Positions 18,001 through 21,000 of a stretch of DNA of 64,000 nt are shown here, piece by piece (the stretch's first letter is position 1; each line of letters starts with the position of its first letter). Made by a program: the position numbers. This DNA comes from Rhynchobatus australiae (lineage: Eukaryota). The stretch is taken from positions 72,490,670 to 72,554,669 of the forward strand of contig JAUZTB010000118.1 in NCBI GenBank assembly GCA_034780895.1, given 5' to 3'.

Positions 18001-21000
18001 TCAACAGAATTCAGGGGAAAGTAACTGGAAATTATCCAGAACATTCAATTGCAAAGACCGTTGGAAATTGACTACGGTTTGTGAGGGGAAACAACAATTA
18101 ACGATTTGTTGCAATACTTTAACATTAATAATACAGAAGAGTATTTAACTTGGTTTATTATTCAGAGGGTATATTTACTTAATTAATAAAACTAGAGATT
18201 AAAAGCTTTTTCTCCCTTCAGACATCCAATATCTGGAACAAATTCAAAGGAGTTAAAGCCACGTCAATAATGAACCAGTTAGATGTCTGTTTAATAAAAG
18301 GAATTTCCACCTGTGCTGTGTTGCATAAAATTCTGATGAAGTCTAAGCCTGAAATATTACCTTGTCTGCTCCCTCCACAGTCACCGACTGAGCTGCTGAG
18401 TCCTTCCAACATTTTGTTTCTGCTCTGAATTGGCTTGCTTATGTTTCACTGTCATTTGACGATTCCCTTTCCAAAAGCCAAAGTTTTCCTCTTGCTTTTG
18501 AACATAACCATCTCCAATGGGACTATCGAAGAAGATCGAATTCTCCCACTTTAAGTAAACCAAACCCCACCCTCACCATGTCACTTATTTTCTTCCTTTT
18601 CCCAGCCTCTCTTTGCACATGTGCTCAACAGACACCAGTACAGGGAGCTTTGCCAAGCCTCAGTAATACAAACCCACTGCCACCACACTGGTTCAGTAAA
18701 AATCAACTGAGGCCCAGGGTTCCACAAATAACCAAGTACAATTCTACCCAAGTGAGGCTTGAGTGTATTCTAGCAGGTTATTCAGTCATGATTAGTCTCA
18801 TTCCAACACTTGATGTGCCTTGAGCGACACTCACACACAGCCTGGATAGTGGCTAGGGGCAGGAAGCCTTTGGCTTTTGCCTTCATTCCCATCCACAAGT
18901 GACCAGGCAGACTGTTGTACCCTTCCACCACTTCCAAAGGCTTCGTTGGCACGGTGAATAAAAGTGACTGAAGAGCTCAGTAGGGGTTCACTACTTTCAG
19001 AGAAAGGGAGATGGCAAGCTGGAACTCACCGACAGCAGATCTCCAAGAGCTTCAGCAAACCCCACCACATACATAGCCACTGCCACTGCGTTGGCAAACG
19101 CAAAGATGAGGCCAATGGAACCGCCAAACTCTGGTCCTAAACTGCGGGAGATCAAGTAGTAAGCACCACCTGCAAGACAAGGGAGAGAGGGTAAAACACA
19201 CCGAAAGCACATGGAACTAATCTGGTAGCAAGTTGTGATATCAAGTATGATATAATTTGGGACTCACAATAAAGGAGATAGACCCCAATTACACATGAGT
19301 TTTTGAGGTTGTAAGTAGCANNNNNNNNNNNNNNNNNNNNNNNNNNNNNNNNNNNNNNNNNNNNNNNNNNNNNNNNNNNNNNNNNNNNNNNNNNNNNNNN
19401 NNNNNNNNNNNNNNNNNNNNTCCGATCTTTCAGTCCTGAAGAAGGGTCCTGACCCGAAACATTGACCTCCACGGATGCTGCCTGGCCTGCTGAGTTCCTC
19501 CAGCGTCTTCTTGTTTTTCCTTTGTTTCTCCAAGGAGACTTTTTTTTTTACCTGCTCCAGCTATTTTGACCAATCCTTCAGAAATTTGTACCAAATATAA
19601 CCTTTGATTTTTATTATCCCAATATCCCTGTTCAGTGAACTCTCTTCCATGTAGGTGAATTATTCTTCTTTGGTAATACCCTGGGATCAAGGATGACTGC
19701 TTCCACTCTAATTTTATTCATTCCAAAATGGCTAATGAAGTTAATGTGGGAACAGCAGACTCTTCAACAGATGGGGAGGGAGATGACCCTCAGGGCAGGT
19801 GAGTGAGTAGTGTATGAGGTGGCTCACTCCTTCTGCTGCTTACAGGGGGTTTCCATAATACATGGCCTCAAAATTCTCAGATATTATCCGCGATGCTCCT
19901 TCCCCACCTTGAGTGGTCAAGGGCCAAAGACCCCCAGAATTCAGTGGGGATGTTGCATTTCTTCACCAAGGCTTTGAGCATATCCCTAAATGTTTTCCAG
20001 TTTCTGCCTGCTGATCTCTTCCCATGACTAAGCGCGGAAAAGGGTGTTTTGGGAATCACATGTCAGGCATGCAAATGAAGTGGCCTGCTCAGCATAACCA
20101 AACAAGCATAAGTGGGGTCTCAACAGTGGGGATATTGGCCTGCGATAGCACACTGATATTGCTTTACTTAACCTTCCGGTGAATTTGGAGGATTTTGCAG
20201 AGACTGCATTGGTAGTAGTTTTCCAATACCTAGGGATGCCAGGTCTCAGAATCACATAGAAGGGCAGTGATCACAGCTATCCAGTAGCGCACAAGTTTTG
20301 TGCCACGTCTGAAGTCTTCATGTTTAAAATATCTAGGACTGGATCACTAATGTTCAGCAATGCAGCCAGGATTTGCTTCTGGGCCCATAGTCAATGCACT
20401 CAGCTATTTCTTAATATTCACATTAAACAAATCAAATTGTCTGAAAACTTTCTTCTATGTTAGGGGCATCCTTGGCAGACCCACATACTGGGCTCCACTA
20501 TAGCTGAGGATGTGAGACTTGCAGTGCTTCATGCTTTGGTTAGTTGTTTGATTGTTCACCACATACTGCCCATTACTCTGCAGTCAATCACTGATGAATG
20601 TAATGTGTTGTTGAGTGGTATTAAGTTGTACTTGCTCACCAATAACATTATGGCCTGAACCAAGTATGGATAAAGGGGGTTAAATTCCAGAGATGAAGAT
20701 GTGGAAGAACTGCAAAGTTTTGAGCTGATCTGGTTGTGGGGTTGCTTTGCATGTATATACATAGCCCTCTATTGTAATTTCACTAAATGTACTTAAGTTT
20801 TAGGCATATCTGGTGCTGCACCCAGTATTCCTCATTGGTCAAAGGCTTGTCCCCTGGCTTGAACACAAAGGTAGAGTAAGAGAAGTACATTTGGGGATGA
20901 GCAAGACACCACAGGCTCAGTTTCCCCAGGACATTTAATCTTTAATGAAAAATCTCCAGCTTCATGAAGATTAGAACCGGACAAAGCAATAGCTTTCAGA

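What the first reader, a model, noticed from the sequence alone, without database searches (positions are those of the whole stretch)
19030..19169. Orphan intact NKCC-type exon inside the PRR16 intron, on the same strand
Seen: a 140-nt exon with a strong polypyrimidine/AG acceptor, a GTGAGT donor and an open NKCC-like frame. I found no neighbouring SLC12 exons (upstream ..IATNG.VRG, downstream ..AGMEWEAK) in the readable sequence of the window. It lies between PRR16 exon 1 and the unseen PRR16 exon 2. Inference: it is (a) a misplaced contig, (b) a duplicated or captured exon, or (c) a nested or interleaved SLC12 gene whose other exons are in gaps or outside the window. The C-terminal end (AEALGDLLS versus recalled AETVVD/ELLK) has diverged, which would fit a divergent paralog.
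Basis: partly seen in the sequence, partly recalled or inferred. Interest (0 to 1): 0.7.

Follow-up and report, generated by a model that had tools for sequence, protein, structure and literature searches.

The report
Lone NKCC1-like transporter exon in PRR16 intron
A single intact exon of an old sister gene of the salt transporter NKCC1 sits, as assembled, inside the first intron of the PRR16 gene of a shark or ray; it is a real exon of an annotated gene family, and its lonely position may owe as much to the fragmented assembly as to biology.

Summary
Window 19030-19169, minus strand, is a 140-nt open exon with a pyrimidine-rich AG acceptor and a GTGAGT donor. It encodes 46 residues of an NKCC-type SLC12 transporter (PDB NKCC1 E 2e-19; Pfam AA_permease above cut-off).

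It is not a canonical NKCC1 or NKCC2 exon. It matches the 'SLC12A2-like' proteins of a sawfish (45/46) and a devil ray (44/46). These belong to a distinct clade, sister to canonical NKCC1, that also holds coelacanth, lungfish, salamander and archaic-frog proteins.

PRR16 (Largen) exon 1 lies at 56534-56665 on the same strand, and PRR16 exon 2 is not in the window. No other SLC12 exon, intact or decayed, is detectable in the readable 64 kb.

The sawfish model (256 aa) stops right after this exon. It alone shares two substitutions found in none of 151 other SLC12 proteins. This points to a truncated or decaying gene copy.

The exon's 3.8-kb block is bounded by 100-N joins flanked by repeats. Seven such joins separate it from PRR16 exon 1, so the nested position is not secure.

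It cannot extend the PRR16 frame (stop after 5 codons). This is an ordinary gene-family member in a curious but unproven setting.

The parts
19030..19169 (-). 140-nt exon of an SLC12A2-like (NKCC1-sister) gene. It encodes 46 residues aligned to human NKCC1 351-395 (intracellular loop 1 plus TM3). Enters in phase 1, leaves in phase 0.
19170..19194 (-). 3' splice site: polypyrimidine tract and CAG acceptor
   Evidence: 19 of 22 pyrimidines at -25..-4
19024..19029 (-). 5' splice site GTGAGT
56534..56665 (-). PRR16 (protein Largen) coding exon 1: 44 codons from the ATG, followed by a gtaagc donor, ending in phase 0
15440..15539 (.). 100-N join bounding the exon's sequence block on the low side. 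The same LINE-like repeat family lies on both sides of it (14870-15439 and 16105-16698, 84-91% alike).
19321..19420 (.). 100-N join 150 nt upstream of the acceptor. An interspersed 50-nt repeat element starts 46 nt beyond it (19466-19515).
16105..17115 (-). LINE-like repeat copy inside the exon's block. It holds a reverse-transcriptase-like ORF at 16624-17115, read by eye and not confirmed by Pfam.
   Evidence: no Pfam hit for this copy; sister copies hit RVT_1 weakly, below cut-off

Best explanation
The segment is a genuine, still intact exon of this elasmobranch's orthologue of the 'SLC12A2-like' gene. It encodes the intracellular-loop-1/TM3 piece. SLC12A2-like is an old sister paralogue of the Na-K-2Cl cotransporter NKCC1. 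It is annotated full-length in a devil ray, coelacanth, lungfish, axolotl and archaic frogs, and as a 256-aa stump in a sawfish.

In a complete mRNA the exon would be spliced between the TM2 exon (...ATNGFVRG) and the next exon (EHG...). On its own it encodes no working protein. It is not part of PRR16's reading frame.

Most likely (inferred) it belongs to a truncated or decaying copy of the sawfish type, in which this is the last conserved coding exon. Its apparent isolation inside PRR16 intron 1 depends on scaffold joins of unknown size, so the exact nested position and strand are not established.

Shown: the exon's identity and paralogue assignment; the absence of other SLC12 exons in the readable window; and that the sequence is out of frame with PRR16 exon 1.

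Inferred: the truncated state and the true genomic position.
For: Identity:
- E 2.1e-19 to NKCC1 structures.
- Pfam AA_permease above cut-off.
- 45/46 identical to Pristis pectinata SLC12A2-like and 44/46 to Mobula hypostoma SLC12A2-like. Canonical chondrichthyan SLC12A2 scores 41-42/46.

Distinct paralogue: in a tree of 35 named proteins the 11 SLC12A2-like rows form one clade (SH-aLRT 99). It is sister to 17 canonical SLC12A2 rows (SH-aLRT 99) at 91. Pristis and Mobula pair at 100.

Exon borders: the Pristis model ends 2 residues after this exon's last codon. Truncated models of other species read into the intron at the same two borders.

Truncated or decaying type:
- The Pristis product is 256 aa and ends ...AEALGGLLSMI.
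- The window and Pristis alone carry Ala40 and Gly42. Thr40 is present in 149 of 151 named SLC12 proteins, and neither Ala40 nor Gly42 occurs in any of the 151.
- Among the 120 best relatives of the Mobula protein, no shark or skate SLC12A2-like of 565 aa or more was listed.
- No downstream exon lies in 19 kb and no upstream exon in 45 kb.

Not PRR16 coding: read in PRR16 exon 1's phase, the exon gives VVLTT-stop.
Against: - The exon is fully open, keeps consensus splice sites, and matches the family majority at 40 of 46 positions. This fits a gene that is still under selection as well as a recently disabled one.
- The Pristis 3' half could exist as a separate model that fell below the 120 rows listed. 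The cluster look-up that might have shown this could not be made.
- The Pristis C-terminal 'MI-stop' has no counterpart as a mini-exon in the window: 0 matches to two motifs.
- If the placement is right, the 5' exons known from Pristis (207 aa) must lie more than 45 kb upstream, beyond PRR16's promoter. That would be unusual.
- The placement itself rests on 100-N joins flanked by repeats.
- Elasmobranch SLC12A1 was not among the proteins fetched, so it was not compared at this exon.
Confidence: 0.55

Rival explanations
1. Pure scaffolding artefact. The 3.8-kb block 15540-19320 belongs to a complete, working SLC12A2-like locus elsewhere, nearby or on another chromosome. It was inserted into the PRR16 intron by a false join.
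For: - 10 of the 19 N-runs are exactly 100 N, i.e. joins of unknown size. Both borders of the exon's block are such joins, and seven of them lie between it and PRR16 exon 1.
- The low-side join has the same LINE-like family on both sides (14870-15439 against 16105-16698, 84-91% alike). The high-side join is followed by a repeat element found 5 times in the window.
- A short block carrying one exon and no neighbour is what a misplaced piece of a long-intron gene would look like.
- In Pelodytes ibericus the SLC12A2-like and Largen proteins sit on contigs of different length: 198,615,977 against 227,791,073.
Against: - No direct sign of a misjoin can be read from the window.
The gene therefore can lie on the PRR16 chromosome. 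This is weak evidence, because those chromosomes are 0.57 and 1.45 Gb and the two frogs are related.
- The nearest orthologue, in a chromosome-level genome, is itself annotated as ending at this exon, so an orphan-looking 3' end is not only an assembly effect.
Confidence: 0.27
2. A live, complete SLC12A2-like gene is interleaved with PRR16 on the same strand. Its 5' exons lie upstream of PRR16 exon 1 and its 3' exons beyond the window or in gaps.
For: - The exon is intact with strong splice sites.
- It is on the same strand as PRR16 exon 1.
- A full-length orthologue exists in Mobula.
- SLC12A2-like shares a chromosome-sized contig with Largen in 2 of 3 comparable amphibians.
Against: - The exon needs an intron of at least 45 kb on one side, containing PRR16's promoter and exon 1, and at least 19 kb on the other. 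No other SLC12 exon was seen: 1 of 3127 fragments was significant.
- None of the 94 Largen-exon-1 relatives is a fusion with an SLC12 domain.
- The two unique substitutions are shared only with the truncated Pristis model.
Confidence: 0.1
3. A single exon was duplicated or captured into the PRR16 intron and is now used by PRR16, for instance as a frame-breaking alternative ('poison') exon.
For: - The splice sites are strong and the exon lies on PRR16's strand, 37 kb downstream of exon 1.
- Inclusion after exon 1 gives a stop after 5 codons, as poison exons do.
Against: - There is no transcript evidence of any kind.
- The conserved frame is the SLC12 frame, not one useful to PRR16.
- No mechanism or flanking duplication signature was seen.
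Confidence: 0.05
4. It is a canonical SLC12A2 or SLC12A1 exon, or a processed pseudogene fragment.
For: At the exon level SLC12A1 proteins of bony fish and snakes reach 41-43/46 and also carry Ser17.
Against: - Canonical shark, ray and chimaera SLC12A2 differ at Ser17 and in the last 7 residues, at 41-42/46.
- The exon shares Ala40 and Gly42 only with a protein whose N-terminal 207 residues place it in the SLC12A2-like clade.
- Splice sites bound the exon and no adjoining cDNA-like coding sequence exists, so it is not a retrocopy.
Confidence: 0.03

Closest known systems
'Solute carrier family 12 member 2-like' of Pristis pectinata (P0005, 256 aa) and Mobula hypostoma (P0022, 1028 aa), RefSeq models
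   Same: 45/46 and 44/46 identical over the exon. The final Ser46 is shared, and the Pristis model ends 2 residues after the same exon border. Ala40 and Gly42 are shared with Pristis only.
   Different: The window has Asp where Pristis has Gly at position 43. Only one exon is visible here, whereas Mobula has a full 12-TM-type protein with N- and C-terminal SLC12 domains (Pfam PF08403, PF00324, PF03522).
Canonical NKCC1 (SLC12A2), e.g. human and zebrafish structures 6PZT, 6NPL, 7S1X
   Same: 41-42 of 45 residues are identical, covering human residues 351-395, the loop-plus-TM3 segment. From memory, not from a call: this TM3 stretch contributes a Tyr to the K+ site. The Tyr in ...AMYVVGF is present here.
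   Different: Canonical chondrichthyan NKCC1 reads GGAIG...AETVRDLLV, against GGSIG...AEALGDLLS here. The SLC12A2-like clade is a separate branch.
NKCC2 (SLC12A1)
   Same: Ser17 and 41-43/46 identity in the six SLC12A1 proteins compared. From memory, not from a call: the exon following the alternative A/B/F cassette in SLC12A1 is also 140 nt.
   Different: SLC12A1 proteins end this exon with ...AETV(V/R)DLLK. They form the outgroup to SLC12A2 plus SLC12A2-like in the tree. No elasmobranch SLC12A1 was available for comparison.
Nested or interleaved genes in long introns, and relic exons of unitary pseudogenes
   Same: A foreign coding exon lies inside a >56-kb first intron of a host gene.
   Different: Nested genes are usually complete and often on the opposite strand. 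Here only one exon is seen, on the same strand, and the arrangement rests on unverified scaffold joins.

Membership tests
SLC12 cation-chloride cotransporters (Pfam AA_permease PF00324), NKCC branch | Significant sequence match to the family, best to the NKCC members | tested here: met
   PF00324 scores 34.1 bits against a cut-off of 24.6. In PDB, NKCC1 gives E 2.1e-19, ahead of NCC at about 3e-16 and the KCCs at about 1e-8.
SLC12 cation-chloride cotransporters, NKCC branch | Exon borders at the conserved positions (G|GAYYL ... LL[K/S]|) | tested here: met
   This evidence is indirect. The Pristis model ends 2 residues after the border. Truncated models P0032 and P0112 read into an intron (V...) after LLK, and P0077 and P0118 read in from an intron before GGAYYL. 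No genomic exon table was available.
SLC12 cation-chloride cotransporters, NKCC branch | A complete transporter gene (12-TM core plus C-terminal domain) at the locus | tested here: not met
   Only this exon was found. The 4 significant tblastn HSPs all lie here, and 1 of 3127 six-frame fragments was significant in the profile search. N-runs were not readable.
SLC12A2-like paralogue clade | Nearest relatives and diagnostic residues are those of the clade, not of canonical SLC12A2 | tested here: met
   Identity is 45/46 to Pristis and 44/46 to Mobula. Ser46 occurs in 5 of 151 named proteins, all of them SLC12A2-like. Ser17 is present, against Ala in all 10 chondrichthyan SLC12A2.
SLC12A2-like paralogue clade | The clade is separate from SLC12A2 and SLC12A1 in a tree | tested here: met
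   The 11 rows form one clade with SH-aLRT 99, sister to SLC12A2 at 91 (quick search, no bootstraps, single long insect outgroup). The 46-aa exon itself is too short to be placed; it is tied to the clade through Pristis P0005.
Canonical SLC12A2 (NKCC1) exon displaced by misassembly | Sequence equal to the species group's canonical NKCC1 exon | tested here: not met
   Sharks, rays and chimaera read GGAIG...AET(V/M/L)RDLL(V/E), 41-42/46 identical.
PRR16 (Largen) coding exon | Keeps the PRR16 frame after exon 1 and matches Largen protein | tested here: not met
   In PRR16's phase the exon reads VVLTT-stop. Largen proteins align only to 56534-56665.
Processed pseudogene (retrocopy) | Contiguous cDNA-like coding sequence without introns | tested here: not met
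   The match stops at both splice sites and no adjoining SLC12 coding sequence follows.
Nested or interleaved gene within PRR16 | The same arrangement in other genomes, and physical continuity across the joins | not testable with these tools
   No vertebrate genome collection was on hand.

The most novel reading that the evidence does not exclude
The placement is right and the SLC12A2-like gene truly runs through PRR16 on the same strand, with PRR16's promoter and exon 1 inside an SLC12A2-like intron of at least 45 kb. This exon ends in phase 0 and PRR16 exon 2 begins in phase 0. Splicing from it into PRR16 exon 2 would therefore give an in-frame chimaera: an NKCC-type N-terminus with TM1-TM3 fused to the body of Largen. 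Alternatively, the exon is kept by selection as a frame-breaking regulatory exon of PRR16 after the rest of the transporter gene decayed.
Probability: 0.08. Interest if true: 0.55.

Novelty: new member of a known kind. Interest (0 to 1): 0.3.

Why it matters
For annotation:
- The exon should be labelled SLC12A2-like (NKCC1 sister paralogue).
- It should not be merged into PRR16 models, where it would break the frame.
- The block 15540-19320 should be flagged for assembly checking.

For biology, the modest point of interest is the gene family.
- The data show an old gnathostome sister of NKCC1. It is kept full-length in a devil ray, coelacanth, lungfish, axolotl and archaic frogs.
- It is annotated only as a stump in a sawfish.
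- No full-length shark or skate copy appeared among the proteins listed.
- I found no paper describing this paralogue in five literature searches of the open-access library.

If this exon is the last surviving piece of that gene, it catches a transporter paralogue partway through its loss in elasmobranchs, animals whose salt handling depends on NKCC-type transport.

Tried and rejected
1. More SLC12 exons in the window. tblastn with Pristis, Mobula, Callorhinchus and Pelodytes proteins and a 30-protein profile against 3127 six-frame fragments with all filters off found only this exon. The next best profile hit had E 3.7 and lay on the other strand.

2. A Pristis-type terminal 'MI-stop' mini-exon. 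Two acceptor-plus-codon motifs gave 0 matches.

3. Cluster look-up for accession numbers and named members of the Pristis, Mobula and Largen clusters. The call did not complete because the database was switched off. As a result the Pristis 3' half and the taxon of the window stay open.

4. Synteny. As a proxy I compared the 'longest contig' lengths printed for proteins of one species.
   - Canonical SLC12A2 and Largen have equal lengths in 11 of 14 species that had both. The 3 mismatches (Ascaphus, Heteronotia, Nanorana) involve scaffolds under 4 Mb.
   - SLC12A2-like and Largen have equal lengths in Bombina and Discoglossus and different lengths in Pelodytes.
   - Equal length is only a proxy for 'same chromosome' and says nothing about distance.

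5. Literature.
   - 'slc12a2-like' gave 0 papers.
   - 'NKCC3' gave 1 irrelevant paper, seen only as a listing.
   - The CCC phylogeny terms gave 9 listings, none on this paralogue by title or abstract.
   - 'NKCC1-like' plus coelacanth gave PMC8608846. The passages I read deal with lamprey genes only.
   - NKCC1 plus Latimeria plus SLC12 gave 3 listings. In PMC9396271 I read passages listing the stingray kidney slc12 transcripts a1, a2, a3, a6, a7, a8 and a9-like, with no a2-like.
   - The 2014 Mol Biol Evol study of CCC evolution (recalled) is not held.
   - One search was rejected for a term longer than four words and was not repeated.
   - Supplements are closed, so a list there could name this gene.

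6. Rfam and tRNA scans of the window found nothing.

7. Rejected readings:
   - chance ORF (the E-values above);
   - retrocopy (splice sites, no adjoining coding sequence);
   - PRR16 coding exon (frame);
   - canonical NKCC1 exon (sequence).

8. No structure prediction, complex prediction or representative search was run. None would bear on the open question, which is genomic placement.
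Full report
**What is there.** The finding's coordinates are right, but the exon lies on the minus strand of the window.
- On that strand the sequence reads ...TTTTACCCTCTCTCCCTTGTCTTGCAG|GTGGTGCTTAC...CTGCTGTCG|GTGAGTTCC.
- The acceptor has 19 of 22 pyrimidines at -25..-4.
- Only one of the three frames is open. It gives [46 protein letters not shown] (P0001).
- The exon is 2 + 138 nt. Two bases complete a Gly codon begun in the previous exon, and the exon ends on a codon boundary.

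**It is not a chance ORF.**
- phmmer against all PDB chains gives NKCC1/SLC12A2 at E 2.1e-19 (41-42 of 45 identical, human residues 351-395), NCC at about 3e-16 and the KCCs at about 1e-8.
- Pfam AA_permease is matched above its curated cut-off, 34.1 against 24.6 bits.

**Which SLC12 gene.** A search of the large protein set, allowing longer proteins, gave 4864 hits at E <= 1e-5 among 6209 candidates, of which 120 were listed.
- The best named matches are 'solute carrier family 12 member 2-like' of the sawfish Pristis pectinata (P0005, 256 aa, 98%) and of the devil ray Mobula hypostoma (P0022, 1028 aa, 96%).
- I then extracted the equivalent 46 residues from 151 named SLC12 proteins of at least 500 aa.
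- The window agrees with the majority residue at 40 of 46 positions.
- Identity is 44/46 to Mobula SLC12A2-like, 40-43 to nine other SLC12A2-like proteins, 41-42 to ten chondrichthyan canonical SLC12A2, and 41-43 to six SLC12A1. Identity to Pristis P0005 is 45/46.
- The final Ser46 occurs in only 5 of the 151, all SLC12A2-like (Mobula, Pelodytes, Pelobates, Spea, Discoglossus).
- Canonical shark and ray NKCC1 reads GGAIG...AETVRDLLV.
- Ala40 and Gly42 occur in 0 of 151, with Thr40 in 149 of them. Only the Pristis 256-aa protein shares them.

**The SLC12A2-like clade.** I built a tree from 35 named proteins that I picked from the 332 stored. It used a quick IQ-TREE search with SH-aLRT support only and one long-branched insect outgroup.
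- The 11 SLC12A2-like rows form one clade (support 99). They are Mobula, Pristis, Latimeria H3BA36, Protopterus, Ambystoma, Ascaphus, Bombina, Discoglossus, Pelodytes, Pelobates and Spea.
- This clade is sister (91) to the 17 canonical SLC12A2 rows (99). SLC12A1 lies outside.
- The paralogue therefore predates the split of cartilaginous and bony vertebrates.
- The exon itself is too short for the tree. It is tied to the clade through Pristis P0005, whose first 207 residues place it beside Mobula (support 100).
- Among the 120 best relatives of the Mobula protein (565-1799 aa; 5853 hits among 8000 scored), no shark or skate SLC12A2-like appears. Only their canonical SLC12A2 is listed, at 63-67% identity.
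- Five literature searches found no description of this paralogue. Supplements could not be read, and the main 2014 family study is not held.

**Surroundings.**
- PRR16 (protein Largen) exon 1 is real and on the same strand: ATG at 56665...AAAGAG|gtaagc at 56534, 44 codons.
- It is 100% identical to an unnamed 283-aa Largen (P0123), 98% to Heterodontus francisci Largen and 95% to Pristiophorus japonicus Largen.
- Largen residues 46-283 are not in the window. As assembled, everything from 56533 down to position 1 is therefore PRR16 intron 1, and the SLC12 exon lies 37 kb into it.
- P0123 is 86-87% identical to two sharks that are 95% identical to each other. Together with the sawfish match, this suggests the window comes from a batoid rather than a shark. 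That is an inference.
- The window is not human, and I took nothing in it for human.
- Each exon was searched on its own.

**Is the exon really alone?** In the readable sequence, yes.
- With four SLC12 queries, tblastn gave 4 significant HSPs, all on this exon, and 13 others with E >= 0.33.
- A profile of 30 NKCC proteins, run with all filters off, hit 1 of 3127 six-frame fragments (E 3.4e-28). The next best had E 3.7.
- So there are no decayed neighbour exons within 19 kb downstream or 45 kb upstream.
- Nineteen N-runs (about 2.9 kb nominal) cannot be read and were left alone.

**How secure is the position?** Not very.
- Ten of the 19 N-runs are exactly 100 N, i.e. joins of unknown size.
- The exon's block, 15540-19320, is bounded by two of them. 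Seven lie between it and the block that holds PRR16 exon 1 (42556-64000).
- The low-side join has the same LINE-like family on both sides (14870-15439 against 16105-16698, 84-91% alike).
- The high-side join is followed by an interspersed element that occurs five times in the window, against 0 expected.
- Order, orientation and even membership of this block therefore depend on the scaffolder.

**A proxy for synteny.** As the only available proxy, I compared the contig lengths printed for proteins of one species.
- Canonical SLC12A2 and Largen have equal lengths in 11 of 14 species that had both. The 3 mismatches involve scaffolds under 4 Mb.
- SLC12A2-like and Largen have equal lengths in Bombina and Discoglossus but not in Pelodytes.
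- This shows only that the paralogue can share PRR16's chromosome. Those chromosomes are 0.57-1.45 Gb, and the two frogs are related.

**What it most likely is.** The identity of the exon is well supported. Its state and place are inferred.
- The nearest orthologue, from a chromosome-level genome, is annotated as a 256-aa product ending two residues after this exon (...AEALGGLLSMI).
- That protein and the window alone have lost the almost invariant Thr40.
- This fits a truncated or decaying SLC12A2-like copy in which this exon is the last conserved coding piece. It would explain the empty 19 kb downstream.
- It does not explain the empty 45 kb upstream, which needs either a very long intron spanning PRR16's promoter or a misplaced block.
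- The exon's perfect frame and splice sites, and its 40 of 46 majority residues, mean any release from selection is recent, or that the exon is still used.
- A 'MI-stop' mini-exon like the Pristis ending is not in the window.
- The exon cannot serve PRR16 as coding sequence. After exon 1 (phase 0) it reads VVLTT-stop.
- Its 3' end is in phase 0, as is the start of PRR16 exon 2, so an SLC12-to-PRR16 chimaera would be in frame. That is a speculative reading.

**Verdict.**
The divergent-paralogue idea holds, and the choice between misplacement, relic and nesting stays open.
- My weights are:

| Reading | Weight |
|---|---|
| Truncated or decaying SLC12A2-like copy, position uncertain | 0.55 |
| Pure scaffolding artefact of a live gene | 0.27 |
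| Live interleaved gene | 0.10 |
| Captured exon | 0.05 |
| Other | 0.03 |

- This is a new member of a known, already annotated gene family. It is of modest interest, mainly as a possible snapshot of the loss of an NKCC1 sister gene for which I found no published description.

Noticed in passing
not in the window: proteins P0022, P0005, P0217, P0028, P0030, P0087, P0228, P0273, P0049, P0265, P0220: An old sister paralogue of NKCC1, named only 'SLC12A2-like' by RefSeq, forms its own clade. The clade spans devil ray, sawfish, coelacanth, lungfish, axolotl and archaic frogs. No amniote or teleost member of the clade, and no shark or skate member, appeared among the 120 rows listed. Five literature searches found no paper on it.
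   Followed up: partly
not in the window: P0005 (Pristis pectinata): The sawfish SLC12A2-like model is only 256 aa and stops two residues after the exon studied here. Either the gene is truncated in that species or its 3' half is a separate model that I could not see.
   Followed up: partly
window 57816-58279, next to the N-run 58312-58553: A CA-rich minisatellite with 54-, 68- and 132-nt periods, up to about 6 copies and 70-79% matches, lies about 1.2 kb upstream of the PRR16 start codon. It sits in the most G+C-rich part of the window (GC 0.51 at 56-58 kb).
   Followed up: no
window 14870-15439 and 16105-17115; also 27237-27671, 45905-46264, 52344-52622: There are several copies of one LINE-like family. 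They carry reverse-transcriptase-like ORFs with a shared '...KSKDVMLRLYKAL(V/I)RPHLEYC..' tail. Two copies hit Pfam RVT_1 only below cut-off (17-21 bits against 29.6). Two copies flank the 100-N join at 15440-15539.
   Followed up: partly
window 77-99, 4122-4144, 12943-12965, 19474-19496, 48614-48636: A short interspersed element with the core GATGCTGCCTG(A/G)CCTGCTGAGTT occurs 5 times at up to 3 mismatches, against 0 expected by shuffling. One copy lies just beyond the gap next to the exon.
   Followed up: no
whole window: 10 of the 19 N-runs are exactly 100 N and the rest vary from 3 to 403 N. This suggests two scaffolding stages: primary scaffolds of 1.5-21 kb joined later by gaps of unknown size. 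That origin of the pattern is my inference.
   Followed up: no
window 55503-55542: A perfect 21-nt tandem duplication (1.9 copies) lies in PRR16 intron 1, about 1 kb downstream of exon 1.
   Followed up: no
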